Program-made: the position numbers and the translations under genes | IMG/VR virus record: IMGVR_UViG_3300035703_000009 | Coordinates: 1 to 64,000 of that record | DNA: 64,000 bases | DNA from: a virus | Direction: 5' to 3' (one strand) | Shown here: positions 39,922-59,518 of the stretch, piece after piece | Numbering within the stretch: position 1 is the first letter of the stretch | Layout: each line of letters starts with the position of its first letter | Notes under the pieces: model-generated | Databases searched by the model: none | Told to the model about the DNA's origin: nothing | Seen by the model: only the letters and a program-made list of their open reading frames with translations

Positions 39922-39932
39922 GAGCGTTTAGA

Positions 39933-41530: not shown

Positions 41531-41546
41531 ATTTAAAAATTGTTTT

Positions 41547-44366: not shown

Positions 44367-44376
44367 CGTAGTTCAT

Positions 44377-45138: not shown

Positions 45139-46204
45139 TCTTGATTTGATTTTTTACTTCTTCTCGATTATCTAATACTAACACTTCATATCCAAGTTCT
45201 GCTAAAGCTACTGCGTATTTTAGCTGTTGAGACTCCTCAATTAAGGTACTTTCTGCCTTATATGTAACGTATGGTAACTCTACTTTAATTGATTTATCGG
45301 GATTAGCTTTAATAAAGTCCTCGATTTGATATTGTAAATGTTTTTCATTCATTTCATCGGTTGCTTTAGAGATTACTGCATCGATTCCTACTTCTTCGCC
45401 ACACTTAGCTAGTGCTCTATTATCCCTAGGAAAACAGGGACCTCCGAATCCAAAACCAGGTCTTAAATATTTGTTTCCAATTCTTGAGTCAGTTCCGATC
45501 GCCTTTAAAACGACATCTGCATTGCACTCTAGTCTTTTTGCAATATCGCCGACCATGTTTGCAAAACTGATCTTGGTTGTCAAAAAGCAGTTTACTGAAA
45601 GTTTAGTCAATTCAGCTTCGGTGCAGCTCATCCTATTAAAAATTGGGCTAGAATCACACAGTCTTTCGTAAACTTGCTGTATACGATTGCCTGCATCAAG
45701 GTCAGCTTGCCCAATCAATACGTTATCACAATTTAGTTGATCTTTAATGATTGTGCCTTGTGCTATAAATTCTGGATTATAGGAGACTTTATAATTGTAT
45801 TCAGATAGCTTATTTTGAAGAGTCTCGCAATATCCAGGAAAGGTGGTACAATTTATTATTAAGTCTTTTCTTGTTTCTTGTTTTCCAAAAGAGATTAGCT
45901 TTTCTGCAATCTGCTCTATTTGTGAATGGTCATATTTCCAATCGTTAGTTGAAGGAGTTCTGACCACAACAAAAATGAGATTACTCTCTAGCGCTCTTTC
46001 CAAATTAGTTGTAAATTCTACATTTTTAGATTCAATCAAAAATTCATTTACGTATGGTTCTGATGTTCGAAAAGACTTTGAAGAAAGAGCATCTATGTAA
46101 TCTTGAGAAACATCTACGCCTAGTACAAAATATCCTTTTCTCTCTAAATTTAAAGCTAAACATAAGCCAAGTTTACCTACTCCGATTATCGAAATTTTGT
46201 TCAT
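45104..46204 (-). CDS. nucleotide-sugar 6-dehydrogenase (UDP-glucose/UDP-ManNAc dehydrogenase family)
   Basis: ISIIGVGKLG N-terminal Rossmann motif. GFGFGGPCFPRD contains the catalytic Cys motif. Confidence 0.75.
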   Translation of the reverse strand: MNKISIIGVGKLGLCLALNLERKGYFVLGVDVSQDYIDALSSKSFRTSEPYVNEFLIESKNVEFTTNLERALESNLIFVVVRTPSTNDWKYDHSQIEQIAEKLISFGKQETRKDLIINCTTFPGYCETLQNKLSEYNYKVSYNPEFIAQGTIIKDQLNCDNVLIGQADLDAGNRIQQVYERLCDSSPIFNRMSCTEAELTKLSVNCFLTTKISFANMVGDIAKRLECNADVVLKAIGTDSRIGNKYLRPGFGFGGPCFPRDNRALAKCGEEVGIDAVISKATDEMNEKHLQYQIEDFIKANPDKSIKVELPYVTYKAESTLIEESQQLKYAVALAELGYEVLVLDNREEVKNQIKNVTTTNFKVVE

Positions 46205-46868
46205 TTTTTACCATTTTTTGATTATTTATCGTTTTTTTAGTTAAGTGCTTAGTATTTTTGATAAAACGATCTATTATGAAATCGTAATTTACTTCTTTTT
46301 TTTCTATGTCGCTATGTCCTGGAATCTGAATAGCAGCTAACGGATAGCTACCGAAACACTCAAACTTACTTTGAACATTTTTTGCGAGCCATACATCAAT
46401 TATTTCGATGTTATTATTTTCAAAAGCATGCAATATAAAGTCAAATATTGTAGAATTATACGCTATTGCGTGTGCAGCATAACAGTTAGTTATTTTTAAG
46501 AGGTTTGGGCTCACTTGACTAAGTGAGGAATGACTATTATATCCAAGGTAATAGAGAGCCCAATGAGTCCTCTGTAGCTGATCTATCGCAGGAGGAATAA
46601 AGTTAATATTCATTAGTTCAAAGTCATCTTCGAAGACCAAAACATTTTTTAAGCCTAATGCTTTTGCTCTTTTGATTGTTTCTATGTGAGAAAGTAGACA
46701 GCCTTGACGACCGTTGCCGTCTGGAGGAACTATGCCTGAGAGTCTCTCAACGCGATCAGCTATTCCTAGCTGGTTAAAAATAGTCAACGCTCTAGCTAAG
46801 CGATCTGGTCTAGAATCTAAATTAATTAAGTAAATCTTTTGAAAATAATTAAATGCTTCCTTTATCAT
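46173..46868 (-). CDS. GT25-family glycosyltransferase
   Basis: IYLINLDSRPDRL and VFEDDFEL motifs. Confidence 0.5.
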   Translation of the reverse strand: MIKEAFNYFQKIYLINLDSRPDRLARALTIFNQLGIADRVERLSGIVPPDGNGRQGCLLSHIETIKRAKALGLKNVLVFEDDFELMNINFIPPAIDQLQRTHWALYYLGYNSHSSLSQVSPNLLKITNCYAAHAIAYNSTIFDFILHAFENNNIEIIDVWLAKNVQSKFECFGSYPLAAIQIPGHSDIEKKEVNYDFIIDRFIKNTKHLTKKTINNQKMVKNEQNFDNRSR

Positions 46869-47482
46869 GCGTCAATTTTACCCAGATGACAAACAACGTA
46901 ATCTGGAGTATCTATTTTATAGTGTTTTTCCTTTAAGATATGACTAATACTGGTCCAATCATGGCCATATCCGTCCGCCCATTGAAATGAGCAAGCACGA
47001 CGGTGGCAAATTGAACTTGTACCGATCCTATTTGCCTTGGGCTCGACCGTCCTTTTCCATTTTTTTTCTCCATTAAAGATATAATCGTCATAGTAACACC
47101 AAACATACTCTGAATCTTTAAAGCCACTAAGTATCTCAAGGTGTGTACTTCCAAAATAATCATCACTGTCTAAATAGCACACAATCTCGCCTGTGGATTG
47201 AGTTAAACCGGCTTGCCTAACTGTTCCGCTAAATAAGGGTTGTTTTGGAAGTTCAATCAAACGCACAGCTGAAAAATTAGAGTATTTTTCTCGAGTTATT
47301 TTTGAAGTTTTTTCGCAGCCGTCACTCACAATTATGAGCTCAGCACTCTTAAAAGTCTGGTCCAAAAAAGAATTTACTGCGCGTCTAAATTTGAACTCAC
47401 GATTTGAGGCAGCTTCAAACCCTCCACTAGTGTAGTGATCTAAATATGAAGCCATGATTACAGTTATCCTTGGAGAATTCAT
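46865..47482 (-). CDS. GT2-family glycosyltransferase
   Basis: ITVIMASY...IIVSDGC and YLDSDDYF (DxD) motifs. Confidence 0.5.
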   Translation of the reverse strand: MNSPRITVIMASYLDHYTSGGFEAASNREFKFRRAVNSFLDQTFKSAELIIVSDGCEKTSKITREKYSNFSAVRLIELPKQPLFSGTVRQAGLTQSTGEIVCYLDSDDYFGSTHLEILSGFKDSEYVWCYYDDYIFNGEKKWKRTVEPKANRIGTSSICHRRACSFQWADGYGHDWTSISHILKEKHYKIDTPDYVVCHLGKIDA

Positions 47483-48195
47483 GACAGTTCGTTGATTTTT
47501 AAAAAAGTTGGCTTAAAAGCACATAGATCAAAACATACATCCAGCTTTCCATGAGAAAAACCCATCTTTTTATACTCAGAAACATCACGATTTGAGATCC
47601 CAGGAATCCTAGGAGTTATTCCTTGAAAATGTATTATTGGAGAACTAGTAATGATTGCAAAATTCCATCCTTTTCTATAGAGCATATCATATAGGTAATC
47701 ATCTCCGCAAAAAAAGTGCAGATTTCTTGGAATTTGAGAGTATGCGGACCTACGCATGGTAAAGTCCCAACCTTGACGGTACTTACCATGAAAAATTCGA
47801 TATTCAAGTTGTGTACAAGACTGATAATTTGGGTGATTTGTTGAGTGAGCAACGCAGCCTACTCGCGGTTCTCTTTCAAAGACGTCAAGAGTGTCCTTAA
47901 TGAAATTTTTTGGAATTATTAGGTCGTTATTTAAAAAACAGCACAACTCATAATTATTTTTAAGAGCAAAATCGTTCCACACGTGGTTTAGTGGACGATT
48001 TTGTCCTGTATATTCTATCTTCTTTAAAAAGGAAAAAGAAAGTTGATCTAGGGACTCTCTAGTGCCGGGCTCAGTAGACCCATTATCGACGACTGTCAAC
48101 TCGAAATCCAGGCAACTCTGAACCGACAGTTGCGTAATTAGATCAATTGTATACTTTATATGATTTCTGTTAATTATTATTACGCCTAATTTCAT
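47479..48195 (-). CDS. GT2-family glycosyltransferase
   Basis: LGVIIINRN...LTVVDNGS N-terminal GT-A signature. Confidence 0.5.
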   Translation of the reverse strand: MKLGVIIINRNHIKYTIDLITQLSVQSCLDFELTVVDNGSTEPGTRESLDQLSFSFLKKIEYTGQNRPLNHVWNDFALKNNYELCCFLNNDLIIPKNFIKDTLDVFEREPRVGCVAHSTNHPNYQSCTQLEYRIFHGKYRQGWDFTMRRSAYSQIPRNLHFFCGDDYLYDMLYRKGWNFAIITSSPIIHFQGITPRIPGISNRDVSEYKKMGFSHGKLDVCFDLCAFKPTFLKINELS

Positions 48196-49052
48196 AAAGA
48201 ATCGTATATTTTAGTAAATTCGTTTACTATTGTTTGAGGATGCCAGTGTTGTTCCATCCAACTCCTACTTTCCTTTCCTTTTTCAAGAATAAAATCAAGA
48301 CCGGCATCGACTATTTTGTTTAGTTCCGTCTCAAGGGAATTGATCCAAACGTTGAAAAAAGGAGAAACTTGAGCACCAGAGGAAGAGAGTAGTATTTTTT
48401 CAACGTCTGGAGAAAGAGAGCATATTGTGAGTTTGCCAAGTGCAAGTCCTTCTAAACCTGATCTATGATAGCTTGAAGTAACGCACTCATCTATAATTAT
48501 GTTGCATTTTGATTTGCGAGCAATACAAGCATCAAGAGAGACTCCAGTTATCACATCAATTTCTACAGAGGTGCCATACTCTCTTTTAATCTTGTTAAGT
48601 ACTGCAAGAGTCTGATCATATCCCTTATCGTGCCACTTACCGAGTTTTTTTGTTCGGCTTGGAGAAAAACCTATTTTAATTGCATGTGAAACCTGCTGAG
48701 AAGAATATTGCGGAGTTGTGAAGTCAATCACATTTCTAACTATTGAGCAGCCTGAATACTCTGGCAGAGTTGCATGATATTGAGAAATTACTAACTTGCG
48801 GTCAACTCGGCTTTTTAGGTCTACTTGAAAAGGTTCGCTATGGTATTGCAAAACAGTTTTGATCCCATGCCGATTGCCAGGTAAGAGATTATGAGCATGT
48901 AGAATACTACCTGCTGGGAAGGCACGCATAGCCGGTGCACCTAATCCTGCCATCTCGCATCGATAGCCTTGACCGAATTTATTGATGGCTTTAGCTAATT
49001 CTAAAGGAGCTTGAGCAATAGGTGTTTGTCTATAGTGATAAACTATTTTCAT
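48192..49052 (-). CDS. hypothetical protein (286 aa), possible glycosyltransferase
   Basis: Embedded in the glycosyltransferase run. No motif recognised. Confidence 0.3.
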   Translation of the reverse strand: MKIVYHYRQTPIAQAPLELAKAINKFGQGYRCEMAGLGAPAMRAFPAGSILHAHNLLPGNRHGIKTVLQYHSEPFQVDLKSRVDRKLVISQYHATLPEYSGCSIVRNVIDFTTPQYSSQQVSHAIKIGFSPSRTKKLGKWHDKGYDQTLAVLNKIKREYGTSVEIDVITGVSLDACIARKSKCNIIIDECVTSSYHRSGLEGLALGKLTICSLSPDVEKILLSSSGAQVSPFFNVWINSLETELNKIVDAGLDFILEKGKESRSWMEQHWHPQTIVNEFTKIYDSL

Positions 49053-49055
49053 TAT

Positions 49056-50513
49056 TTACTTTTTTTTTAATATTCCTGGTTCGCCTTTTTCAAATTTACA
49101 AGTAAGATACTTTAACTCTAACAAGTAATTATGCACACTAGAAATATTCTTATCTGAATTTGATCTAAATATTGAATTTAATCCGTTTGTGTAGCCGTTA
49201 AAACCAAACAGGGACAGTGAATAGTGCGGAATCTTTAACTCCTCTAATAACAAAATCATGCTAAGTCCACTAGTTGGAAGAAGATAGCTTTTTTTTAAAG
49301 CGGCAGATATAGAAATTAGAGCAGGGTAGTGGTAGTTTAGTATTTTCTTGCTAGGATAACTAGCACAAATGTCACTGACTGCTTTGTGCCAAAGATCAAT
49401 AGGTTTTGAGAAAACTATCAAATAATCTGAGGGTTGGTCTAAATTAAATCTAGCCTGCCGAAATATGCAGTGAACGCTTGTTTTAGTGCCGGTGTGAGTA
49501 GGTTCGATTGGATAACCGTTGAATCTAATAACTACATCATGTGAATCAATTAGTTCTCCATGTTGGTGTTCTAAAAGTTCTGAAGAATTTGCGATTATTG
49601 CTATTTTTTTGCCAGTTAAATACTCTTTGAATGAACTTAATGAAGTTAACTTAGATTTAAGTAAAAATCTGTTTTCAGAAGATCTATTCAGTGTAATTGG
49701 TATTGAACTATTTTGCTGTTTTACATGAGGAATCGGCCTAGGTTGTTCTTCGGCATTTATAGTTTGTCTATCAGAATTAAAAGAACTCGGCTGGACTAAA
49801 AATTGGCTACTTTCTTTGTTTTTAAAAAGCCACACTTGATTGATTTTAGAATATTGAGCTGAGTTGTTTAGAGTTGTGAAAAGAATTACATCTTTAGACT
49901 CTAAGGAAGCTCGCATAGTTATAAATTTAGAGTCTAAGTATTCATTTGAAAAAGAAATGTTAGCTTCAGAATAAAAACTAGGATTTAGACAAGAATTCAA
50001 GTGATTATTTAGTTGTAAATCTAACGAATTGGAAGTTAACATTCTATTTGAGAGTTCATGGTAAACTTCTTCAGATAATGATATTTTTTCACTTAGGTGA
50101 AAAAAGAGAACTGAATTGAGCGCTTTGCCTAACTTATTTTCAGATATGAAATTACAGCTTTTTTGAAAAATTGAATAGTTAGAAAAGTATAGTAAACTTT
50201 CGTTTTCTGTAGATTCATTAAATACTGTCCATTTTAGAGCAGAGTTCACCAGTTCAAAATATTGCACTCGTCCCTTATATTTGTCTATTACACTAAAAAT
50301 AGGATGCGACGTTTGTAATTTTATTGCGAGCTTTGGATAAATTTTAAGAAGAATGTCATAATTCCTAGTGGATAATTGATCCATAGGATGATCGAGTAGG
50401 TTAATTGTACCAGTAAACCATGGATTGTTTTTTATAAAAGAAAAAATACTGGTTCTAAGTAGGTGAAAATTTTTGTTAGTGGCCTCAGTATACGCATTAA
50501 CTATCTTATCCAT
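49056..50513 (-). CDS. two-domain protein with C-terminal GT29-like (eukaryotic-type) sialyltransferase domain
   Basis: KKIAIIANSSELLEHQHGELIDSHDVVIRFNGYPIEPTHTGTKTSVHCIF matches sialylmotif L (C.VVGNSG.L..S..G..ID.HD.V.R.N.AP....DVG.KT). LPTSGLSMILLLEE...FGF matches motif S, and HNYLLE matches motif VS (Hx4E). The N-terminal 280 aa are unassigned. Confidence 0.55.
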   Translation of the reverse strand: MDKIVNAYTEATNKNFHLLRTSIFSFIKNNPWFTGTINLLDHPMDQLSTRNYDILLKIYPKLAIKLQTSHPIFSVIDKYKGRVQYFELVNSALKWTVFNESTENESLLYFSNYSIFQKSCNFISENKLGKALNSVLFFHLSEKISLSEEVYHELSNRMLTSNSLDLQLNNHLNSCLNPSFYSEANISFSNEYLDSKFITMRASLESKDVILFTTLNNSAQYSKINQVWLFKNKESSQFLVQPSSFNSDRQTINAEEQPRPIPHVKQQNSSIPITLNRSSENRFLLKSKLTSLSSFKEYLTGKKIAIIANSSELLEHQHGELIDSHDVVIRFNGYPIEPTHTGTKTSVHCIFRQARFNLDQPSDYLIVFSKPIDLWHKAVSDICASYPSKKILNYHYPALISISAALKKSYLLPTSGLSMILLLEELKIPHYSLSLFGFNGYTNGLNSIFRSNSDKNISSVHNYLLELKYLTCKFEKGEPGILKKK

Positions 50514-51151
50514 TTTACTTGATCTAAGTCTTTTTGAGTGTCGACGTCAACTACATCTTCGATCGGGTAGAACACGGTAGACGGGCCGTACATATTCTTA
50601 TTTAATTTATAGAGAGCAGAAGCTCTAAAGATGCACATGTAGTGACTGATCTCAAAGCACTTTGGATAGTCTTGGCGTCGGTATAGATCGTGTTCAAGTA
50701 AAGGCTTGCCGAAAACGCCGTCTGCTCCATGCTCCTGTAACATGAGATAAGGTGAGACTTTAAGTTCCTTCTTACATAGCATAGAATCAGCAAGACCTAA
50801 GTCAGCAAACTGACAGTAATATTCATAAGCCGCGTAAATCTCTTTCCAGGTCCTCTCTGGATAGGTTAAGTAGAGCATTATTACTTCAGCAGACATGGGA
50901 AGCCCGACGTTTTTTACGGCGTGTTGCATCACGTCCCGAATGTTAGCAGAGTCGTCTGATAGTTCAGAAGGACGATCGATTGCACAACACCCATGCTTAA
51001 TGGCTAACTGAAATATCTCAGGGTCGTCGGTCGTCACAAAAACACGTCTACGAAGAGACTCTGGAATCGAGTCTATTGTCGCTTTAAAAAGCTTACGGTT
51101 CTTAAAGGGTAGGCCCTTGGAACCCAGTCTGGCTGGAATGATGATGTTCAT
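50501..51151 (-). CDS. neuA: CMP-nonulosonic acid synthetase (NeuA-like acylneuraminate cytidylyltransferase)
   Basis: MNIIIPARLGSKGLPFKNRKLF matches NeuA/KdsB IIPARGGSKGIxxKN. Confidence 0.75.
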   Translation of the reverse strand: MNIIIPARLGSKGLPFKNRKLFKATIDSIPESLRRRVFVTTDDPEIFQLAIKHGCCAIDRPSELSDDSANIRDVMQHAVKNVGLPMSAEVIMLYLTYPERTWKEIYAAYEYYCQFADLGLADSMLCKKELKVSPYLMLQEHGADGVFGKPLLEHDLYRRQDYPKCFEISHYMCIFRASALYKLNKNMYGPSTVFYPIEDVVDVDTQKDLDQVKWIR

Positions 51152-51765
51152 AGTTGATCGAACTCTTTGAGAGTTATTTTTGGAATCTGTAGGTTACTAG
51201 ACTCGCTCAAGTTGTAAAAAGATACTCCGCGCCTTTCAAGCTCAGCTCTAAGCTTTTGATAAGCAAGATTGACCTTAGTCAGGTGCTTAGTCTTAACGAC
51301 ACTGTGCGCTCCATCCTTGGGATTATAAAAGTGCCCGTCTGTAAAGTCGACACCAATAACGCCGATGTGTTTTGCTCCCAATCGATACGCTAGGCAGACC
51401 GCACAATACGGCGAATTCAAATAGTGATCGAGATGGTTCTTTTTATCTAGACAAGTCAGCTCTCGAGTACCTAACTCAAAATAGATTAGGCTAGTGTGTC
51501 GCCAGCCCCTGGCGCAAGTAAAGAGGTGTTTTGACTTTGACTGTACTACTAGGTCCTTGCGTTTACCGACAAACCGTAATGGGCTGTCTGTGACTAGTAA
51601 ATAGGTCGGAGTAAAAAGGGCCGGCACGTCGTTGACTCCGATCGTGGTGTATCGTTCCGCATGTTCAGCAAAGCCCAGCAGAGAAGTGCCACAGCCACAG
51701 ACTATGATCTTTTCACCTGAATGCGGACGGTCAATGTCCTTAAGAGATTTGATTAAGCTAGACAC
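51148..51765 (-). CDS. hypothetical protein, possible Maf/DUF115-like glycosyltransferase
   Basis: KIIVCGCGTSL resembles the xIxGNGPSL motif of Maf/Cst-II-like enzymes. Weak. Confidence 0.25.
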   Translation of the reverse strand: MSSLIKSLKDIDRPHSGEKIIVCGCGTSLLGFAEHAERYTTIGVNDVPALFTPTYLLVTDSPLRFVGKRKDLVVQSKSKHLFTCARGWRHTSLIYFELGTRELTCLDKKNHLDHYLNSPYCAVCLAYRLGAKHIGVIGVDFTDGHFYNPKDGAHSVVKTKHLTKVNLAYQKLRAELERRGVSFYNLSESSNLQIPKITLKEFDQL

Positions 51766-51830: not shown

Positions 51831-52826
51831 ATGGATCATTATTCAACCCTTGGTGTCTCTAAGAACGCAACAGACGATGAGATTAAAAAAGCCTATCGTC
51901 AAATGACGTTAAAGTACCATCCCGACAGAAATCAGGACGATCCAGGAGCGGCTGACCAGTTTAAGAAGATAGCGGCTGCTTATGAAGTGTTAAGCGATTT
52001 AAAAAAGAAGGCAGAATACGATGGAGCTGCACAAAAGGCCTCACATGACTGGAACTATAACTTTAACGACGATTTTACCACCTTTTCAAATAACTTTAGG
52101 AACTCAGAGTTTAGAAGAAAGTCAAACGAACGTGCTAGAGCCTCACAGGGCAAGACCCACATGGGTCCAGTCGATACTTCATACTTGGACATCAATTTAA
52201 ACTGTGAAATCGATTTTAAAGAGACTGTCTTGGGTAAAAAGGTCGACATCACGTTTACTCGCAAAAAAATCGTCTATACTGGAGCGGCTGGCAACTTACT
52301 TAAGTACGTCAAAGAGGACGAAGAGAAGGAGATCAAGGTAAACTTTGACTTGCGTAAAACCTATTTACAGATCAAAAAGGAGGGACAAAACTATGTGGCT
52401 AAGGTCCGAGTGAGTAAGTTCGGTAACGAGGACGTCTCAGTAAGACCCAACATCTGGGGAGACATGGAGCAGTATCCTCTTACTGGAGAGTTATACATCA
52501 CAGTAACTATCATTATGCCTCCAGGAGTCGAACTTGAAAACAATAACATCATACACAGGGTTGAGATCCCACTATATAAGGCAATCATACCTGGAGAAAA
52601 AGTAGAGATTGAGACCGTCCTAGATAAAAAATATGAGGCTGAGATCAAGAGCCCAACTCACCTAAACGATCTTAAGCTAGTGATTAAGGAACAGGGCATA
52701 GCCGACTCATTTGGCACGATCGGTGATTATATCGTTAGATTCTCCATACTGGCTCCAAGAGTTGCTGATTTTAGTAAATCCAAAGTAGAGAGTTTGCGTA
52801 CAATATTGGTTGACTCCGGCGCATAA
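51831..52826 (+). CDS. J-domain (DnaJ-like) protein
   Basis: N-terminal [53 protein letters not shown] carries the HPD motif. The remaining 260 aa lack DnaJ zinc-finger motifs. Confidence 0.75.
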
Positions 52827-52850
52827 CTTAAAAAATCTCCCAAAAGCCTT

Positions 52851-52867
52851 AATAAATAATAAAAAAA
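52851..52867 (+). promoter_or_regulatory. T4-late-like promoter motif AATAAATAATAAAAAAA
   Basis: Exact 14-mer, 10 nt upstream of the TTG start at 52877. Flanked by complementary aaagcctt / aaggcttt arms. Confidence 0.55.
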
Positions 52868-52876
52868 TTTAAGGCT

Positions 52877-54856
52877 TTGACAAGTACAAATTTAAGCTTC
52901 AATGGAGACAATCAGGACTGGGTCCTTATTGTTGAGAACATCGGCGAGACACTGGCTCAAGTCAAGTCTGGCGAAAACAACTCAGTTCTCGAAGGAGTCT
53001 GTGCAGTATTCGGCAGAATGAACAACAATCGCCGCGTTTACGAAAAAGAAGAATATTTACCCCACCTTTCATACTTAAAGGATAAGATCGCAAAACGACA
53101 ACTTGTCGGAGACTTGGATCATCCACCTCACTTTGATGTTAGCTTAAAGAGCGCATCACACATCATCGAAGAGCTTAAATATGATGGCGGAGACAAGGTT
53201 TACATTAAACTACGTATCCTCGAAAACACTCCAAACGGAAAAATTGCAAAGGCACTATTGGATGGCGGAGTTCAACTTTCGATCTCATCCAGAGCAGCCG
53301 GTCAAGTCTTTGAAGGCGGCAAAGTAAAACTACAAAGAATCTTTACTTACGATCTAGTAGGAGAGCCTGGATTCACAGAAGCGATCCTTAGAAAAACAGT
53401 TAGCGAGTCACTTAAGCATGACTTTCAGATGATAACTGAGAGCTACAACCACCTTAAAGAGGAGTCAGTAGTACAAACTCAAAACTTGACAGACATTTCA
53501 GAAAGTCTCAATTTTTCTGAAAATTTCAAAGTCTACAAGATAAATAAAACTAATGAAGATCTAGGATTAAACTTCCAATCGTCTTCAATTCAACAAAAAA
53601 ATAAAACAACCATGGTTGAATATGTAACTAAAGATCAGATGGATCAGTACTCTGAAGTATTAAAGAACCAGTTCGCCGGTCTTAAGAAAGAAATCAAATC
53701 TCAAAAGGAGCTACTTGAGTCAGCTAACTCATCTAATCCTACTGACATTAAGTTAGTTGGTTTTGTGAATTACTTGGCAGAACAACTCGAAGGAGTTGTA
53801 AACTATGCTAACTACATTTCAGGTAAGCTTAATGAGTCGATCAAGTACTCAGAGCACGTTGCAGAGACCACTAACAATTCTATCGCGTACTCAAGCTATG
53901 TTGGTGAACAGCTAAACAAATCGATCCAACATCAAGATCACATCGCTGAAAAGCTCAACCAAACTATTAACTATTCCGAGTACATCAAGGAAAACTTAAA
54001 TAACTCAATCAAATATCAAAACTATTTAGCTGAAGAGATAGACAAAGGAATCCAGTACACTGAATACGTTGCTGAAGGCTCAAACCGCGGCTTAGAATTC
54101 TCTGACTACTTAGCAGAACAACTCAACCTTAACCGCGATTACGCAGGCTATATTGCTGAAAAGCTTGGTCAGAGCATTGGTTATACTGAGTATATCGTTG
54201 AGTCTCTAAACGAAGGCACAACTGTTGGAAGCAAACGAAACGTTCTAAACGGAGTTGAAAAACTCGATGAGTCAGTTTCAGTTGACGCTCTAATCGCTAA
54301 GGTTGACCAAGTGATAACTGAAGTAAGCGACAAGTCTTCTAAAGCGGTTCTTGAAAGCAGATACCCATTCTTAAAGGTAATGAGTGAAGCTAAAAAGAAA
54401 GCATTCTTCGCTCTTGAAACAGACACTAAACAAGCGATTGTTGAAGCCCTAAACGGAGCTATCTGGTTCAACGAAAACGATGTAGCTGGAATCATGGAAG
54501 CAGTGGTTGATCATAAGACTCAAAACCTACCAGTTCACATAAGATTTATGCCTGCTGACTACAAAGCACTATGGAACGAGATGCATGAGAGCGAAAAGAA
54601 TCGCATCCACGCTAAGTCTCAGATGTATGACATTCGTACTCCATACCAAGCAAAAGCTTTCTGGGATGAAATGGACCTAAGAGGAGTTCAAGAAAGAATC
54701 GCAATCGAAAAGAATAACACAAAAATACAAGCACAGCTCAACGAAAGCCAAAGTACAGAAGGCCTAATACCTGTAAACCAGGTGGTTGAGATGCAGAGAG
54801 GTTACTCTCAAAACTATCTCGAGAAACTCCAACGCCAGGCGGACTATCGTAGATAA
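52877..54856 (+). CDS. prohead protease (T4 gp21-like, S77) fused to a repeat-containing scaffold-like domain (gp22 analogue); TTG start
   Basis: N-terminal 190 aa carry NNNRRVYEKEEY, GDLDHPPHF and LSISSRAAG, resembling the gp21 NGRIYP, GELDHP and SSRGxG motifs. The remainder is acidic and helical with 11 tandem 14-aa repeats (xYxEYxAExLNxSI) and Gln/Glu-rich coiled coil. Confidence 0.55.
   Translation: MTSTNLSFNGDNQDWVLIVENIGETLAQVKSGENNSVLEGVCAVFGRMNNNRRVYEKEEYLPHLSYLKDKIAKRQLVGDLDHPPHFDVSLKSASHIIEELKYDGGDKVYIKLRILENTPNGKIAKALLDGGVQLSISSRAAGQVFEGGKVKLQRIFTYDLVGEPGFTEAILRKTVSESLKHDFQMITESYNHLKEESVVQTQNLTDISESLNFSENFKVYKINKTNEDLGLNFQSSSIQQKNKTTMVEYVTKDQMDQYSEVLKNQFAGLKKEIKSQKELLESANSSNPTDIKLVGFVNYLAEQLEGVVNYANYISGKLNESIKYSEHVAETTNNSIAYSSYVGEQLNKSIQHQDHIAEKLNQTINYSEYIKENLNNSIKYQNYLAEEIDKGIQYTEYVAEGSNRGLEFSDYLAEQLNLNRDYAGYIAEKLGQSIGYTEYIVESLNEGTTVGSKRNVLNGVEKLDESVSVDALIAKVDQVITEVSDKSSKAVLESRYPFLKVMSEAKKKAFFALETDTKQAIVEALNGAIWFNENDVAGIMEAVVDHKTQNLPVHIRFMPADYKALWNEMHESEKNRIHAKSQMYDIRTPYQAKAFWDEMDLRGVQERIAIEKNNTKIQAQLNESQSTEGLIPVNQVVEMQRGYSQNYLEKLQRQADYRR
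53765..54215 (+). repeat. in-frame 42-nt (14-aa) tandem repeat array inside the protease-scaffold gene
   Basis: Eleven degenerate repeats: KYSEHVAETTNNSI / AYSSYVGEQLNKSI / QHQDHIAEKLNQTI / NYSEYIKENLNNSI and so on. Confidence 0.65.
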
Positions 54857-54883
54857 TCAAAAACTAAAAAAATCAACTCAAAA

Positions 54884-56554
54884 ATGGCACGTACTAAAAT
54901 TTTCAGACGTTCAAGTGATAAGAACTTGGCCGCAACCTGGAAGCCAGTCCTTGAGAGCTATGGTGCAAATGTTGAAAAGACACCTTGGTTAGCAGAATAT
55001 GCTCACAACCACGGAATCTTCGACAACACTACTCCATTGTTCGAACAGGCTACTGCTCCCGGTCTATTCTTCCAACAACCAGCCTCTTTAGGCGGCTATG
55101 CTGGACAGATCTCCGCACCAACTAACTCGATGACTCCGTTCTCGGGTGGTGCAAAAAATGCATACGGTAACGTAGGCGACACCGTAGGTTCTGGTGACAA
55201 ATTTCCTTCATTGCTTCCTGTAGCTATCCAAGTTGCAGCTAAGACAATTGGATTTGACCTTGTTCCAGTTATCCCAATGGATTCTCCAGTAGGATTCCTT
55301 CCTTATCTTGATTACTTGTACACAGGTGGTCGTACAGATAAAGCATTTGATCCTTACATGGTAAAAGTTGTAGGAATCAACGCGAATGACTTCCCAGCTG
55401 GTCCAGCGTATGGTGATTCAATCACTGTATCTGGTAGTGGAGCTGGCGATTTCGATCTAGAATTCGTAGGCTACTCTCGTGTTGACGGTAACTTGATCAT
55501 CAAAATAGTTGCAGATAATGGCTCAAACATCATCGCTACTTCTCTTGAAGGTAACACTTTGACGATTGGAGTTGATACTTCAGCTACAGTTGATGCTGGT
55601 GCAGTACAATTAGTTTCTGCTCTTGAAAACCACATCTCTGGTTTCACTTCAGTATCTGATGATGACTATGCAAATTCTGGAAACTTTGTTGGTCCTTACC
55701 TTCCAACTACCGGAGCAGTTCCTGGTTCAATGAAGCGTGAAGCTTCTGAGCTTTCTAAGTTCCGTCAAATGGGCTTAAGAATGTTTACCAAATTCGTTGA
55801 GGCTGAAACTGATCAAGTTGCTATCTCTGCAACTGTTGAGCAGATCCAAGACCTTAACCGCGTTTGGAACTATGACGTTATCTCAATGCTTGAGAACGTT
55901 GCAGTTAACGACATCGCTCAATCAATCAACAAGCGTCTTGTAGACCGCGTGTTCACCCTTGCTGACGTTCACTCTAATGAAATCGATCTAGTTGAAGGTA
56001 CTGGAATCACTAACCTAGACTTAACTGCAGGTTCTGGTGGTTTCGAAAACATCTCAACTTTACAACGTAGAGTTGTTACCAAGATCCTTGAACTTGCTAA
56101 CTTGATCTACCACAGAGGTCGTTTCGGAGCAGCTTCTTACCTTGTTACCACAGGTCGTGTTGCTTCTGCTCTTGCAGACGTAGCTGGTTACTCAATCGCT
56201 CAAGTTCCATCTGACATGTCAACTACTGCAGGTCAATTGTACCCAGCAGGTAAAGTGTATGGCGTTCAGGTATATGTTGATCCTAACTTAAGTTGGGGAG
56301 ATACGCGTATCGTTCTTGGACGTAAGGGTGCTGACGAAGAACCAGGTGTTAAATTCATGCCTTACATCATGGCGGAATCACTTCAAACTATCGCTGAAGG
56401 AACAATGTCTCCTAAGATCGGTATGAAGTCGCGTTACGCTATCACCGAGGCTGGATGGCATCCTGAGACTCAGTATGTTAGCATGAACCTTCAAGGTCAA
56501 GACCTTGGTGTTCTAACTGGTAGCATCGCTCCACAGCCAAGCGGCACGCTATAA
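54884..56554 (+). CDS. gp23: major capsid protein (T4 gp23-like)
   Basis: ATWKPVLESYGANVEK resembles gp23 NKWKPLLEGEGLPE. AAKTIGFDLVPVIPMDSPVG resembles IPNLIAFDICGVQPMNSPTG. C-terminal GMKSRYAI resembles GFKTRYGI. 556 aa. Confidence 0.7.
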   Translation: MARTKIFRRSSDKNLAATWKPVLESYGANVEKTPWLAEYAHNHGIFDNTTPLFEQATAPGLFFQQPASLGGYAGQISAPTNSMTPFSGGAKNAYGNVGDTVGSGDKFPSLLPVAIQVAAKTIGFDLVPVIPMDSPVGFLPYLDYLYTGGRTDKAFDPYMVKVVGINANDFPAGPAYGDSITVSGSGAGDFDLEFVGYSRVDGNLIIKIVADNGSNIIATSLEGNTLTIGVDTSATVDAGAVQLVSALENHISGFTSVSDDDYANSGNFVGPYLPTTGAVPGSMKREASELSKFRQMGLRMFTKFVEAETDQVAISATVEQIQDLNRVWNYDVISMLENVAVNDIAQSINKRLVDRVFTLADVHSNEIDLVEGTGITNLDLTAGSGGFENISTLQRRVVTKILELANLIYHRGRFGAASYLVTTGRVASALADVAGYSIAQVPSDMSTTAGQLYPAGKVYGVQVYVDPNLSWGDTRIVLGRKGADEEPGVKFMPYIMAESLQTIAEGTMSPKIGMKSRYAITEAGWHPETQYVSMNLQGQDLGVLTGSIAPQPSGTL

Positions 56555-57745: not shown

Positions 57746-59518
57746 ATGTACTCATCTGGAATCGAAATACCTAAAGTCCAATTTTCTCTGATCGCTTTTA
57801 GCCAGATCGAGCCCGGAAGCTTTTTCTTGGGCTTTGACCTGGACAATGCAGGTACGCTATCAAAAATAGACAATACTGGAACCATTACTGTGATCGAGGG
57901 AGCCGGCGGAGGCAGCTCAATTATGATTGAGGACAGTGGGTTAGGCTCAACTGTTCGTATCAATAACTGTAATTCAGCAAGCAGTTGCTCTTCAACAGTC
58001 AGTGGCGGTTATTCAAACACTGCATCGGGTAATTATGCCACAGTTAGTGGCGGTTATTCAAACACTGCATCGGGTAATTATGCCACAGTTAGTGGCGGTG
58101 AGAGCAATACCGCATCGGTTTATCATTCCACAGTTAGTGGCGGTTTTGGCAACACGACATCGGGTGGTGCTTCCACCATTGGCGGCGGGTGTAGCAACAC
58201 GGCATCGGGTTATATTTCCACAGTTAGTGGCGGTAGCCAAAATACGGCATCGGGTTATAATTCCACAGTTAGTGGCGGTATATGCAACACGTCATCGAGT
58301 AGTTCTTCCACAGTCGGCGGTGGTGCGAGCAACACGGCATCGGGTTATTGTTTTTCCACAGTCAGTGGCGGTGTGGTTAACACCGCATCGGGTGCTGCTT
58401 CCACAGTGGGTGGCGGTAGCCAAAATACGGCATCTGGTGCTGTTTCTACAGTCGGTGGCGGATGTAACAACACGGCATCGGGTTGTTCTTCCACAGTGGG
58501 TGGCGGTAGACAAAACACGGCATCGGGTTGTAATTCAACAGTCAGTGGCGGTTGCGGTAATACTATTAATGCTTTTACAACATGTTTAGGTTATAGCGTA
58601 GTTGGAAATACCATAGGCGGTGGTCAACAAAATACAATAAATTCAAATAGCGCTTATAATGCAAATGCTGGTGGTGTTACAATAGCAGGCGGTTTTAACA
58701 ATACAACATGTTCAGGTTCTTATGGGTTTAATACCATAGGTGGTGGTCGTAGCAACACGTCATCTGGTGATTATTCCACAGTAAGCGGCGGAAATGCCAA
58801 CATGGCATCGGGTTATTTTTCCACATTAAGTGGCGGTTTTAGCAACACGGCATCGAATTCTTCTTCCACAGTCGGTGGCGGTAGCCAAAATACGGCATCT
58901 GGTGCTGTTTCAACAGTCGGTGGCGGATGTAGAAACACGGCATCAGGTTATTGTTCAACAGTCGGTGGCGGTTTTTGCAATAATGCATCGGGTGCTCGCT
59001 CTACTATTGGAGGAGGGTGTCGCAACACGGCATCGTGTACTTATTCTACAGTCGGTGGCGGTAGGAGCAACACGGCATCGGGTGCTTATTCCACAGTCGG
59101 TGGCGGTTTTTGCAACACGACATCGGGTTCTATTTCCACAGTTGGTGGCGGATATTGCAACACGGCGTCGAGTAATTCTTCCACAGTGGGTGGCGGATGT
59201 TGCAACACAGCATCTGGTGCTTGTTCCACAGTAAGCGGCGGGGTTAACAACACGGTATCGGGTGGTTATTCCACAGTCGGTGGCGGATGTAGAAACACGG
59301 CATCGGGTTGTAGAAGTTTTGTTGCAGGTGGTCAATGTAATAACACAAACAGTTGCAATGACGCTATGATAGTGGGCAGCTGTATCACGGCTGATCGCGC
59401 ATGTGCTACATTTGTCAATAACCTATCAATCAAGAGCATACCTACTTCGAGCGCGGGCTTACCTAGCGGCTCAGTCTGGCGGTGCACAGCTGACAATACT
59501 TTGCGTATCATTGCATAA
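57746..59518 (+). CDS. fibre/decoration-like protein with about 30 tandem 15-aa Gly/Ser/Thr/Asn/Cys-rich repeats
   Basis: 590 aa. After a 75-aa N-terminal domain, the repeat unit is TVSGGYSNTASGNYA (consensus S/GGxxNTASGxxSTV) through residue 530. Distinct C-terminal domain. Confidence 0.6.
   Translation: MYSSGIEIPKVQFSLIAFSQIEPGSFFLGFDLDNAGTLSKIDNTGTITVIEGAGGGSSIMIEDSGLGSTVRINNCNSASSCSSTVSGGYSNTASGNYATVSGGYSNTASGNYATVSGGESNTASVYHSTVSGGFGNTTSGGASTIGGGCSNTASGYISTVSGGSQNTASGYNSTVSGGICNTSSSSSSTVGGGASNTASGYCFSTVSGGVVNTASGAASTVGGGSQNTASGAVSTVGGGCNNTASGCSSTVGGGRQNTASGCNSTVSGGCGNTINAFTTCLGYSVVGNTIGGGQQNTINSNSAYNANAGGVTIAGGFNNTTCSGSYGFNTIGGGRSNTSSGDYSTVSGGNANMASGYFSTLSGGFSNTASNSSSTVGGGSQNTASGAVSTVGGGCRNTASGYCSTVGGGFCNNASGARSTIGGGCRNTASCTYSTVGGGRSNTASGAYSTVGGGFCNTTSGSISTVGGGYCNTASSNSSTVGGGCCNTASGACSTVSGGVNNTVSGGYSTVGGGCRNTASGCRSFVAGGQCNNTNSCNDAMIVGSCITADRACATFVNNLSIKSIPTSSAGLPSGSVWRCTADNTLRIIA
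57990..59330 (+). repeat. 45-nt tandem repeat array (about 30 copies) within the fibre-like gene
   Basis: Unit acagttagtggcggttattcaaacactgcatcgggtaattatgcc and close variants. High nucleotide identity between copies. Confidence 0.8.

What the first reader, a model, noticed from the sequence alone, without database searches (positions are those of the whole stretch)
52877..54856. Prohead protease fused to a scaffold-like domain with eleven in-frame 14-aa repeats
In T4, gp21 (protease) and gp22 (scaffold) are separate. Here a single 659-aa ORF (TTG start, late promoter 10 nt upstream) has gp21-like motifs in its first 190 aa (NNRRVY, GDLDHP, SSRAAG). It continues into an acidic, helical domain with a regular 42-nt / 14-aa repeat (xYxEYxAExLNxSI, 53765-54215) and a Gln/Glu-rich coiled coil. 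This is a protease-scaffold fusion of the P2 gpO / lambda C-Nu3 type placed in a T4-like head module. The repeat number may tune scaffold length and capsid size.
Basis: partly seen in the sequence, partly recalled or inferred. Interest (0 to 1): 0.55.

Follow-up and report, generated by a model that had tools for sequence, protein, structure and literature searches.

The report
Capsid protease fused to repeat-built scaffold
A jumbo phage encodes its capsid-maturation protease and a probable capsid scaffold as one protein, and conserved signals inside the gene suggest the scaffold half is also made on its own, as in herpesviruses and phage lambda.

Summary
ORF 52877-54856 (659 aa, conserved TTG start) has a T4 gp21-type (Peptidase_S77) protease domain with invariant His82/Ser137/Asp159. 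Eleven in-register 14-aa repeats follow (aa 295-448; z=14 against shuffles), then a confident helical C-terminal domain. The major capsid gene starts 27 nt downstream.

It is not a frameshift artefact. More than 100 relatives are 654-664 aa, and the C-terminal half has 393 cluster representatives, nearly all fused. These include the largest known phage genomes (462-735 kb).

New here: Met246, at the linker/scaffold boundary, is 85-90% conserved. Two independent clades have a trough of synonymous variation just upstream of it, the deepest in the gene in one and the second deepest in the other. Each clade's own gene-upstream motif recurs there.

The best reading is a fused gp21-gp22 equivalent with a nested, internally started scaffold (414 aa), comparable to lambda C/Nu3 and herpesvirus UL26/UL26.5.

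Scaffold function and internal initiation are inferred, not shown. The C-terminal half has no detectable homology to gp22 or to any solved structure. Repeat number is narrowly fixed (mode 12), so the idea that it tunes capsid size has only weak support.

This is a new variant of a known kind, of moderate interest.

The parts
52844..52877 (+). Upstream control region. It contains the promoter-like motif ATAAATAAT (52852-52860, extended TAATAAATAATAAAAAA), bracketed by the inverted repeat AAGCCTTAA (52844-52852) / TTAAGGCTT (52869-52877). The 3' arm of the repeat abuts the TTG start.
   Evidence: The motif occurs 11 times in the window against 0.93 expected, and every copy lies 12-17 nt upstream of an ORF start in the correct orientation. 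It is invariant in 12 homologs whose flanks have diverged.
52877..54856 (+). Full-length protease-scaffold ORF: 659 aa, 74.9 kDa, TTG start.
   Evidence: There are 120 listed homologs of 644-664 aa at 68-100% identity.
52919..53446 (+). Peptidase_S77 (T4 gp21-type, assemblin-fold) protease domain, aa ~15-190. Catalytic His82 is at nt 53120-53122, Ser137 at 53285-53287 and Asp159 at 53351-53353.
   Evidence: Pfam and PHROG matches. In the alignment to 5jbl, His82 and Ser137 sit at the two positions mutated to Ala in the crystal. Foldseek gives 5jbl at E=2e-9 and TM 0.65-0.69, followed by weak herpesvirus protease hits. H82, S137, S138 and D159 are invariant in 104 sequences. A pairwise alignment to T4-like gp21 matches all three residues. 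AF2 pLDDT is 70-89.
53432..53443 (+). Candidate autocleavage site I-T-E188|S, which would release the protease from the scaffold part (alternative site V-S-E178|S).
   Evidence: E188 is invariant in 104 family members, with consensus V-N-E-S. T4-like gp21 has ITES at the equivalent place. T4 gp21 cleaves after L/I-X-E and is itself C-terminally processed (PMC9026906). The assignment is an inference.
53447..53611 (+). Variable, gap-rich linker (aa ~191-245) that carries nucleotide-level constraint. It includes the promoter-like core GATAAATAA (53539-53547) and an invariant A-rich stretch, CAA AAA AAT A, just before ATG246.
   Evidence: AF2 pLDDT is below 50 and the alignment columns are gappy. 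Synonymous obs/exp is 0.35-0.63 across aa 211-255, against a gene mean of 0.99 with sd 0.20. Invariant codons AAG ATA AAT AA and CAA AAA AAT are seen in 15 sequences at 63-80% aa identity. It is only a partial match to the full promoter profile: 4.6 bits, rank 73 of 127,962 positions.
53612..54856 (+). Proposed nested gene: in-frame internal start at Met246 giving a scaffold-only product of 414 aa (47.3 kDa, pI 5.08).
   Evidence: Met246 is conserved in 212 of 248 diverse family members and in at least 90% of the 104 in A1. It lies at the boundary between the variable linker and the conserved block. One standalone homolog starts near the homologous position, directly upstream of a capsid gene (L008/P0264). 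There are no expression data.
53759..54220 (+). Array of eleven 14-aa (42-nt) repeats, aa 295-448. The family consensus is x-Y-[STA]-E-Y-[LIV]-A-E-x-L-[ND]-x-[SG]-I. It is predicted to be one continuous alpha-helix of about 156 residues (about 23 nm).
   Evidence: z=14. Family-wide column frequencies come from 3,512 units. AF2 predicts a helix at aa 290-445 with low confidence, pLDDT 40-55. 88% of units carry [LIVM]-x-E at positions 6-8.
54278..54853 (+). Conserved C-terminal helical domain (aa ~468-659) with the signature F/M-P-x-x-Y-K-x-x-W ... Y-Q-x-x-x-F-W-x-x-x-D-L. It is the candidate capsid-protein-binding end of the scaffold.
   Evidence: AF2 pLDDT is 72-87 in two independent runs. F498, F595, W596, D600 and E623 are invariant. 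The motif is shared with the cultured Tenacibaculum phages PTm1 and pT24. There is no PDB fold match; the best hit has E=2.7.
54737..54810 (+). Nucleotide block inside the 3' end of the ORF that is conserved at synonymous sites and has predicted stem-loops. It lies 75-150 nt upstream of the capsid gene start.
   Evidence: Synonymous obs/exp is 0.28-0.40. RNAalifold predicts 19 pairs with 1 compensatory change. Its role is unknown.
54884..56554 (+). gp23-like major capsid protein gene, 27 nt downstream. It has no canonical promoter motif of its own. Its likely propeptide ends at L-F-E54|Q.
   Evidence: Pfam Gp23 at 2.2e-34. The best promoter-profile score upstream is only 9.2 bits, against 16.7-27.2 for the 14 gene-upstream training sites. 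The cleavage site is an inference.

Best explanation
This gene is the head-assembly core of a jumbo myovirus of T4-like head lineage. The host is probably a Bacteroidota bacterium. The equivalents of T4 gp21 (prohead protease) and gp22 (scaffold) are joined in one reading frame.

Full-length product. The 659-aa protein starts from a conserved, weak TTG codon behind a strong phage promoter motif. It carries an active Ser/His/Asp protease on a flexible linker. After the linker come a 31-residue helix, a rod of about 23 nm built from eleven 14-residue helical repeats, and a compact helical C-terminal domain.

Inferred assembly. The C-terminal part co-assembles with the capsid protein encoded immediately downstream and so carries the protease into the prohead.

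Inferred second product. A scaffold-only protein of 414 aa is started at the conserved internal Met246. It would come from an A-rich, unstructured initiation region embedded in the linker codons, possibly helped by a weak internal promoter. This would give far more scaffold than protease, as in T4 (about 580 gp22 to about 55 gp21), in lambda C/Nu3 and in herpesvirus UL26/UL26.5.

Inferred clearance. After shell completion the protease frees itself at the invariant (V/I)-x-E188|S site. It trims the capsid protein propeptide at L-F-E|Q. It cuts the scaffold after Glu at the [LIV]-A-E present in almost every repeat, so the rod falls into peptides of about 14 residues that can leave the shell.

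Shown here: the domain architecture, the catalytic residues, family-wide conservation of the fusion, the repeat, the conserved Met, and the synonymous constraint. Inferred: scaffold function, internal initiation, and the cleavage sites.
For: Protease:
- Pfam S77 above its cut-off and PHROG 207.
- 5jbl is matched by sequence and by fold at E=2e-9.
- H82, S137 and D159 are invariant in 104 sequences and align to the T4-like gp21 triad (the triad is His/Ser/Asp per PMC5694885).

The fusion is real and old:
- The 120 listed close homologs are 644-664 aa, nearly all 654-664, and a second clade is 559-667 aa.
- Searching the C-terminal half alone gives 393 representatives at E<=1e-3, nearly all 560-980 aa with the match starting at aa ~160-200.
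- The same fused ORF lies directly upstream of the capsid gene in huge phages of 462-735 kb and in cultured Tenacibaculum phages PTm1 and pT24.

Scaffold role:
- The region occupies the gp22 slot between protease and gp23, as in the T4-type order shown.
- No other ORF lies between them.
- It is acidic and predicted all-helical, like gp22.
- T4 gp21 is thought to be targeted to the core by its cleaved C-terminal propeptide (PMC9026906).

Nested start:
- Met246 is conserved in 212 of 248 sequences, at the edge of a gappy linker.
- In the window's clade (15 DNAs) synonymous obs/exp drops to 0.35 at codons 236-250. That is about 3 sd below the mean and matched only by the region upstream of the capsid gene start.
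- In an independent marine clade (57 DNAs) the deepest trough of the whole gene (0.45, z about -4.3) sits immediately upstream of the homologous Met.
- Each clade's own gene-upstream motif recurs there. The window has ATAAATAA. The marine clade has ATAAAACAAATAAAAC against its TATAAATCAAATAAAC. The huge phages have GGATATATG against their ATATATA.
- There is no overlapping ORF of 40 aa or more in other frames at 53500-53650.
- One standalone scaffold homolog lies upstream of a capsid gene (L008).

Cleavage logic:
- The L/I-X-E specificity, and gp22 being cut into multiple fragments, are documented for T4 (PMC9026906).
- 88% of 3,512 repeat units carry [LIVM]-x-E.
Against: - There are no expression, proteomic or structural data for any member of the family.
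- The C-terminal half has no detectable homology to gp22, to any PHROG or Pfam family, or to any solved fold.
- The internal promoter-like site is only a partial match: 4.6 bits, against 16.7-27.2 for the 14 gene-upstream training sites. In the window it lies 64 nt from the ATG rather than the usual 12-17 nt.
- The conserved I-Y-E / V-Y-K peptide in that stretch may be conserved for protein reasons, since AF2 predicts a strand at aa 217-222.
- [LIVM]-x-E is barely enriched in the repeat region: 0.065 per residue against 0.053 elsewhere in the same proteins. The cleavage-per-repeat idea is therefore consistent with the data but not distinctive.
- Most apparently standalone homologs turned out to be artefacts of contig ends, an N-gap or a homopolymer indel.
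- AF2 confidence for the repeat helix is low, pLDDT 40-55.
Confidence: 0.62

Rival explanations
1. Single-product fusion of the P2 gpO type. Only the full-length protein is made. It acts as both scaffold and protease at 1:1 stoichiometry and then digests itself. Met246 and the nearby nucleotide conservation exist for other reasons, such as protein structure, codon or mRNA-stability constraints, or a promoter that serves only the downstream capsid gene.
For: - The fusion is nearly universal in the family.
- The internal promoter-like site is a weak match.
- The capsid gene lacks its own canonical motif, so an internal promoter could exist for its sake alone.
- The I-Y-E / Y220 peptide is conserved at the protein level.
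Against: - A Met retained at 85-90% at a linker/domain boundary across lineages sharing only about 30% identity is hard to explain structurally.
- The constraint includes the A-rich codons immediately 5' of the ATG, in two clades.
- A 1:1 protease-to-scaffold ratio is far from the roughly 1:10 seen in T4 and in herpesviruses.
Confidence: 0.2
2. The C-terminal extension is not the scaffold. It would instead be an enlarged capsid-targeting propeptide or an internal head (core or ejection) protein attached to the protease. This would resemble the C-terminal targeting regions of phiKZ gp175 and SPN3US gp245. The true scaffold would be encoded elsewhere, or the capsid protein's own N-terminal domain would serve as scaffold.
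For: - Giant-phage proteases are known to carry autocleaved C-terminal regions thought to target them into the prohead, and no gp22 counterpart has been confirmed in phiKZ-like phages (PMC5694885).
- There is no sequence or fold similarity to any known scaffold.
- The head module is scattered, with the portal 40 kb away, so a scaffold could lie elsewhere.
Against: - At 414-470 residues, with a 23-nm repeat rod and a conserved globular end, the region is far larger than known targeting peptides.
- It occupies the gp22 position next to the capsid gene in every lineage examined.
- None of the other window ORFs scanned matched a head scaffolding family, though only a subset of ORFs was scanned.
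Confidence: 0.12
3. Assembly or sequencing artefact: two separate genes (protease and scaffold) joined by a missed stop codon or an indel.
For: One relative (L007) shows the two parts in different frames, overlapping by 13 nt.
Against: - Hundreds of independent assemblies from different sources keep one uninterrupted frame of the same length.
- The L007 split sits at an A6 run and gives the protease a junk-like tail, so it is itself the probable indel.
Confidence: 0.01

Closest known systems
T4 gp21 (prohead protease, MEROPS/Pfam S77) plus gp22 (major core scaffold)
   Same: The protease domain is a true homolog in sequence, fold and catalytic His/Ser/Asp. The gene order protease, scaffold-position, gp23-like capsid gene is the same. 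The middle part is acidic and helical, and rich in (L/I)-x-E. The protease has a conserved (I/V)-x-E-S site at its C-terminal end.
   Different: T4 has two separate genes. Here there is one frame. The scaffold-position part (414 aa against 269-271) has no detectable homology to gp22, is built on a strict 14-residue repeat, and ends in a globular domain. The portal gene is 40 kb away rather than adjacent.
Herpesvirus UL26 / UL26.5 (assemblin protease-scaffold fusion with a nested, separately expressed scaffold)
   Same: The protease fold class is the same: S77 proteases share the assemblin fold, and weak Foldseek hits to PRV, HCMV, VZV and KSHV proteases were found. The protease is N-terminal and the scaffold C-terminal in one frame. 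There is evidence for an in-frame internal start preceded by promoter-like sequence. The expected excess of scaffold over protease is also shared, since scaffold transcripts are about 10-fold more abundant in herpesviruses.
   Different: Internal expression is not demonstrated here. The scaffold parts share no sequence similarity. The cleavage chemistry is presumably after Glu (T4 type) rather than at the herpesvirus Ala|Ser R and M sites.
Lambda C / Nu3, and P2 gpO
   Same: The architecture is the same: a protease N-terminal to a scaffold in one frame. In lambda, Nu3 is translated from an internal in-frame start of gene C (from general knowledge of lambda; C and Nu3 as protease and scaffold appear in PMC3224144).
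   Different: The protease families are unrelated (lambda C is ClpP/SppA-like and gpO is S73). Those phages have small T=7 capsids and lack a repeat rod.
Tenacibaculum phages PTm1 (564 aa) and pT24 (527 aa), 'prohead core scaffolding protein and protease'
   Same: These are cultured jumbo phages (225-235 kb) of Bacteroidota with the same fused layout directly upstream of the capsid gene. They share the C-terminal MP..Y...W ... FW motif.
   Different: They lack the 14-aa repeat. PTm1 has a 16-aa repeat (W..F...LSEGIEKW) and a long acidic spacer. BLAST does not detect similarity in the C-terminal half. Their annotation is the legacy name of T4 gp21, not a recognition of the fusion.
phiKZ gp175 / SPN3US gp245 (Peptidase_S80 giant-phage proteases)
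   Same: They are distant homologs (S80 hit at E=8e-7). [quoted passage not shown]
   Different: Their C-terminal regions are short (total length about 260 aa) and are not scaffold-like. No scaffold is known for those phages.

Membership tests
Peptidase_S77 (T4 gp21 prohead protease) | Profile match above the curated threshold | tested here: met
   PF03420 scores 41.7 bits against a cut-off of 27, E=1.1e-10. PHROG 207 matches at 2.5e-38.
Peptidase_S77 (T4 gp21 prohead protease) | Catalytic His, Ser and Asp present at the aligned positions | tested here: met
   His82 and Ser137 align to the two residues mutated in 5jbl. His82, Ser137 and Asp159 align to T4-like gp21 NHPP, VSSRG and GVDAV. All three are invariant in 104 homologs.
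Peptidase_S77 (T4 gp21 prohead protease) | gp21 / assemblin fold | tested here: met
   The AF2 domain has pLDDT 70-89. Foldseek gives 5jbl at E=2e-9 with target-normalised TM 0.65-0.69.
Peptidase_S77 (T4 gp21 prohead protease) | Cleavage after Glu in L/I-X-E, and autoprocessing | not testable with these tools
   Candidate sites only: the invariant E188, L-F-E54 in the capsid protein, and [LIV]-A-E in the repeats.
T4 gp22 scaffold family | Sequence homology to gp22 | tested here: not met
   hhalign of the 248-sequence C-terminal profile against a T4-like gp22 gives probability 0.25%. The template was a single sequence, so power is limited. No PHROG or Pfam hit was found.
T4 gp22 scaffold family | Position between protease and major capsid gene; acidic, alpha-helical | tested here: met
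Nested protease/scaffold genes (lambda C/Nu3, herpes UL26/UL26.5 type) | Protease and scaffold in one reading frame, with the protease N-terminal | tested here: met
   The arrangement is conserved family-wide. Scaffold identity itself is inferred.
Nested protease/scaffold genes (lambda C/Nu3, herpes UL26/UL26.5 type) | Independent in-frame internal start producing the scaffold alone | tested here: inconclusive
   In favour: Met246 is 85-90% conserved, synonymous troughs occur in two clades, and clade-specific upstream motifs recur. Against: the promoter match is weak and there are no expression data.
Nested protease/scaffold genes (lambda C/Nu3, herpes UL26/UL26.5 type) | Homology of the protease to lambda C (S49-like) or P2 gpO (S73) | tested here: not met
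   Only S77 and S80 profiles match. The only PDB relative by sequence is gp21.

The most novel reading that the evidence does not exclude
The fused, internally re-started protease-scaffold gene may be the ancestral state of the assemblin-fold protease lineage shared by herpesviruses and T4-like phages. On this reading T4's separate gp21 and gp22 arose by fission. The strictly periodic 14-residue rod, about 2.1 nm per unit and 11-16 units, would be the long-sought scaffold or ruler that lets phages build capsids for genomes of 250-735 kb. Each unit would double as a protease cut site so that the rod can be cleared.
Probability: 0.15. Interest if true: 0.8.

Novelty: new variant of a known kind. 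Interest (0 to 1): 0.55.

Why it matters
How very large phage capsids are scaffolded is unresolved. For phiKZ-like giants no counterpart of T4 gp22 has been confirmed (PMC5694885).

This family supplies a concrete, testable candidate. It is present in the largest phage genomes known (462-735 kb) and in many freshwater and marine jumbo phages. The candidate has a measurable periodic rod and a conserved capsid-proximal domain.

There is also evidence for an internal start on an assemblin-fold protease gene. If confirmed, it would extend the expression logic of herpesvirus UL26/UL26.5 to tailed phages with the homologous protease. That bears on the shared ancestry of Duplodnaviria head assembly.

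In practical terms, gene callers and annotators currently label these proteins only as 'T4 prohead protease'. They miss both the scaffold half and the probable nested product.

Tried and rejected
- TRF on the DNA found no tandem repeat. The units are only 49% identical at the nucleotide level, so the repeat is ancient and not a recent expansion.
- PHROG and Pfam scans of the C-terminal half, in three different cuts, gave nothing below E=0.04.
- hhalign against T4-like gp22 showed no relation.
- Foldseek of the aa 246-659 model against the PDB showed nothing; the best hit had E=2.7. Against BFVD it found only family members, plus a 389-aa 'Virus NIOZ-UU157' protein whose genomic context I could not check.
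- tblastn of the C-terminal half against 50,697 phage records found only the six huge uncultured phages.
- I looked for unfused 'standalone scaffold' homologs as evidence that the two parts occur as separate genes. P0241, P0262 and P0271 sit at contig ends. P0289 is split by an N-gap. P0273/L007 is split at an A6 run with a junk tail. P0277 has a 117-aa partial gene overlapping its start by 46 nt, but no DNA was available to check it. Only P0264/L008 looks genuine.
- A promoter profile built from 14 gene-upstream sites scores the internal site at only 4.6 bits, rank 73 of 127,962. I therefore do not claim a canonical internal promoter.
- I tested whether [LIVM]-x-E is enriched in the repeat region. 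The enrichment is marginal, 0.065 against 0.053 per residue.
- Repeat count against protein length gives r=0.04, which argues against copy number as a freely tuned variable.
- A megablast of 15 kb around the locus against GenBank phages found no near relative.
- Literature searches found no description of this fusion family. The held library is incomplete, so this is not proof of absence.
Full report
**1. Observation.**
The window has one uninterrupted ORF, 52877-54856 (+), of 659 aa, beginning with TTG. Its first ~190 residues match Pfam Peptidase_S77 above the curated cut-off (E=1.1e-10) and, more weakly, Peptidase_S80. They also match PHROG 207 'head maturation protease' at 2.5e-38. The only solved relative by sequence is T4 gp21 (5jbl). 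In that alignment His82 (GDLDHP) and Ser137 (SSRAAG) fall on the two positions that are alanine in the inactive crystal form.

The next ORF, 27 nt downstream, is a gp23-type major capsid protein (Pfam Gp23, 2.2e-34).

The 14-residue repeat is real. Eleven units lie in perfect register at aa 295-448 (nt 53759-54220). Lag-14 similarity is 14 sd above shuffles, with no lag-7 signal, so the unit is not two similar heptads. At the DNA level the units are only 49% identical and TRF finds nothing. The array is therefore old and maintained at the protein level.

**2. Not an artefact, and not rare.**
The 120 close homologs listed are 644-664 aa long, nearly all 654-664, at 68-100% identity. They sit on contigs of up to 275 kb, and some are named only 'Peptidase U9, T4 prohead protease'. 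A second clade of 559-667 aa is just as populous and includes marine Tara sequences.

I searched the C-terminal 459 residues alone against 1.84 billion cluster representatives. This returned 393 proteins at E<=1e-3 and 209 at E<=1e-10. Almost all are 560-980 aa, with the match beginning at residue ~160-200, which means they are fused to a protease.

The same fused gene lies immediately upstream of the capsid gene in the huge uncultured phages LR756500-LR756504 and LR745206 (462-735 kb). It also lies there in the cultured Tenacibaculum jumbo phages PTm1 (564 aa) and pT24 (527 aa). These two share the C-terminal motif but have a different middle region, with a 16-aa repeat in PTm1.

**3. Anatomy.**
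AlphaFold2 with a 104-sequence alignment gives the following:
- a confident protease domain, aa 15-165, pLDDT 70-89;
- a disordered, gap-rich linker, aa ~190-250;
- a helix at aa 252-282;
- one continuous helix at aa 290-445 covering the repeats, with low confidence as expected for a monomeric rod (about 156 residues, about 23 nm);
- a compact helical C-terminal domain, aa ~490-625, pLDDT 72-87.

A second run on aa 246-659 reproduced the C-terminal domain. The protease domain matches 5jbl by fold (E=2e-9, TM 0.65-0.69), followed by weak hits to herpesvirus proteases.

H82, S137/S138, D159 and E188 are invariant in the 104 sequences. The first three align with the His/Ser/Asp of a T4-like gp21. 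The triad is as given in PMC5694885.

The C-terminal half has no PHROG or Pfam family, no relation to gp22 (hhalign probability 0.25%) and no PDB fold match.

Within the repeat, positions 7, 10, 14 and 3' (A, L, I, small residue) form a continuous 3-4-spaced seam. Tyr2, Tyr5 and Ile6 form a second patch that recurs every ~2.1 nm. This reading comes from the sequence consensus and is an inference.

**4. A probable nested gene.**
In an alignment of 248 diverse family members, Met246 (MVEYVTKDQ) is conserved in 212. It is at least 90% conserved in the 104-sequence set. It sits exactly where a variable, gappy linker gives way to a conserved block.

I then built codon alignments. In the window's clade (15 distinct DNAs, 63-80% aa identity) synonymous variation is near expectation over most of the gene (obs/exp 0.99 +/- 0.20). 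It collapses in two places. One is codons 211-255, with a minimum of 0.35 at codons 236-250, right at ATG246. The other is codons 606-655, upstream of the capsid gene start.

The nucleotide alignment shows invariant AAG ATA AAT AA (53537-53547) and CAA AAA AAT A directly before the invariant ATG.

In an independent marine clade (57 distinct DNAs) the single deepest trough of the gene (0.45, about 4.3 sd) lies just upstream of the homologous Met.

Each clade's own gene-upstream motif recurs at that place:
- In the window, ATAAATAAT occurs 11 times against 0.93 expected, and every copy lies 12-17 nt upstream of an ORF start, including the TTG start of this gene. Its core GATAAATAA recurs at 53539-53547.
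- In the marine clade, ATAAAACAAATAAAAC, 10 nt before the internal ATG, mimics TATAAATCAAATAAAC upstream of the gene.
- In the huge phages, GGATATATG about 40 nt upstream of the internal ATG resembles their ATATATA motif.

There are caveats. With a profile built from 14 bona fide sites, the window's internal site is weak (4.6 bits, rank 73 of 127,962). It is also 64 nt from the ATG. I therefore regard an internal translation-initiation region as well supported and an internal promoter as only possible.

Genes in this window have A-rich leaders without Shine-Dalgarno sequences. This fits the Bacteroidota hosts of the cultured Tenacibaculum-phage relatives and of other freshwater jumbo phages (PMC9723584). 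It also fits the constraint to keep the codons before ATG246 A-rich.

**5. Split versions.**
I looked for relatives in which the two halves are separate genes. Most 'standalone' hits are artefacts. Three sit at contig ends (L006, L010 and P0262). One is split by an N-gap (L009). One is split at an A6 run and leaves a junk-like protease tail (L007). P0277 could not be checked, because no DNA was available for its contig.

One looks genuine. P0264 in L008 is 403 aa, starts close to the homologous position, and lies directly upstream of a capsid gene with no protease upstream. A 389-aa BFVD entry from 'Virus NIOZ-UU157' may be another, but I could not check it. The fused form is thus the rule.

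**6. Mechanism proposed.**
By analogy with T4, the acidic helical C-terminal part is the scaffold, and the fusion delivers the protease into the prohead. T4 packs ~580 gp22 and ~55 gp21 into the core, and gp21 cuts after L/I-X-E (PMC9958956). T4 gp21 dices gp22 into fragments and is itself C-terminally processed, and its propeptides may target it to the core (PMC9026906).

A weak TTG start for the full-length protein and an internal ATG for the scaffold would give the needed excess of scaffold. This is the logic of lambda C/Nu3 (general knowledge) and of herpesvirus UL26/UL26.5. In herpesviruses the standalone scaffold transcripts are about 10-fold more abundant (bioRxiv 10.1101/2024.05.03.592320).

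The invariant (V/I)-x-E188|S, which matches ITES at the same place in T4-like gp21, is the likely release site. L-F-E54|Q is the likely end of the capsid propeptide.

88% of 3,512 repeat units carry [LIVM]-x-E, so the rod could be cut once per unit. That motif is barely enriched over the rest of the protein (0.065 against 0.053 per residue). This step is a hypothesis, not a finding.

**7. Repeat number and capsid size.**
Across 347 full-length family members the number of units is narrowly distributed. The mode is 12, and 11-13 accounts for 73%. The count does not correlate with protein length (r=0.04).

For six phages with known or approximate genome sizes, the in-register span is as follows:

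| Phage | Genome size | Units |
|---|---|---|
| window clade | contigs up to 275 kb | 11 |
| LR756500 | 462 kb | 12 |
| LR756504 | 636 kb | 12 |
| LR745206 | 635 kb | 13 |
| LR756502 | 642 kb | 14 |
| LR756501 | 735 kb | 16 |

This is a mild upward trend, but n is small and the phages are related. The ruler idea is not excluded, but the evidence points to a module of roughly fixed length.

**8. Comparison and novelty.**
The protease is a member of S77, and all testable defining features are met. The scaffold part is not a detectable member of the gp22 family, although it occupies gp22's place.

The architecture is that of lambda C/Nu3, P2 gpO and, closest in protease fold, herpesvirus UL26/UL26.5. 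It is not homologous to the lambda or P2 enzymes. Fused proteins of this family are already in public databases under the legacy gp21 name.

I found no paper that describes the fusion, the repeat or a nested start. The library searched is incomplete. I rate the finding a new variant of a known kind.

**9. Verdict.**
It is extended by evidence for a nested scaffold gene. Its capsid-size corollary is weakly supported. Interest is moderate (0.55). It would be higher if the internal start and the scaffold role were shown experimentally.

Noticed in passing
window-wide; e.g. 9479, 10176, 14996(-), 15386(-), 18110, 22587(-), 23788, 29876, 46229(-), 52852, 56626: A strong phage promoter-like motif, ATAAATAAT(A/C)AAAA, occurs 11 times against 0.93 expected. 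Every copy lies 12-17 nt upstream of an ORF start in the right orientation, followed by A-rich leaders without Shine-Dalgarno sequences. Variants ending ...AAC lie upstream of the ORFs at 7798 and 19528, and a third lies at 27929 with no ORF start confirmed. The motif resembles the T4 late promoter TATAAATA.
   Followed up: partly
window 54737-54810: A nucleotide block inside the 3' end of the protease-scaffold ORF is conserved at synonymous sites (obs/exp 0.28-0.40). Predicted stem-loops include CUCAAC/GUUGAG enclosing two hairpins, followed by GAGAG-GUUA-CUCUC. It lies 75-150 nt upstream of the capsid gene start. Only one compensatory pair was seen. The element is absent from the marine clade. 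It may be an RNA element controlling capsid-gene expression.
   Followed up: partly
window 52844-52877: A 9-bp inverted repeat, AAGCCTTAA / TTAAGGCTT, brackets the promoter motif, and its 3' arm ends on the first base of the TTG start. It could be a terminator for the upstream DnaJ-like gene, or a structure that masks the start codon on read-through transcripts.
   Followed up: no
window 51831-52826 (+): A phage-encoded DnaJ/Hsp40-like protein (J domain plus DnaJ C-terminal domain, Pfam 5e-27 and 5e-14) sits directly upstream of the protease-scaffold gene. It is conserved at that position in all 9 close relatives that have upstream flank (36-50% identity). It is absent there in the huge phages and the Tenacibaculum phages. 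It may be a dedicated co-chaperone for head assembly.
   Followed up: partly
window ~36100-51765 (-): A run of about 16 consecutive minus-strand ORFs forms a sugar-modification cluster. It includes a cytidylyltransferase (CTP_transf_3), a GT29 sialyltransferase-like protein, GT2, GT25, UDP-glucose/GDP-mannose dehydrogenase and an NAD-dependent epimerase/dehydratase. The cluster abuts the head genes. It may serve glycosylation of virion proteins or of the host surface.
   Followed up: partly
window 57746-59518 (+): A 590-aa protein is made almost entirely of ~13-residue Gly/Ser/Thr/Asn repeats (STVSGGxxNTASG). It matches Pfam UspA1_rep (2.6e-27) and an ice-binding beta-roll. It lies about 1.2 kb downstream of the capsid gene, with three small ORFs between. 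It may be a head fibre or decoration protein; pT24 has a giant 'chlorovirus glyco repeat' gene near its capsid gene.
   Followed up: no
window 12136-13845 (-) versus 52877-56554 (+): The head module is scattered. The T4-type portal gene lies 40 kb from the protease-scaffold and capsid genes and on the opposite strand. In the huge phages and Tenacibaculum phages the portal is 0.1-1.8 kb upstream of the protease gene.
   Followed up: no
L007 3940-4013 (JGI contig Ga0613763_0099, 204.6 kb): In this relative the protease and scaffold parts are in different frames, overlapping by 13 nt. The shift maps to an A6 run, and the protease frame ends in a junk-like tail (IKKIIYIIKKIKWII). This is probably an assembly indel, but a programmed frameshift was not excluded.
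   Followed up: partly
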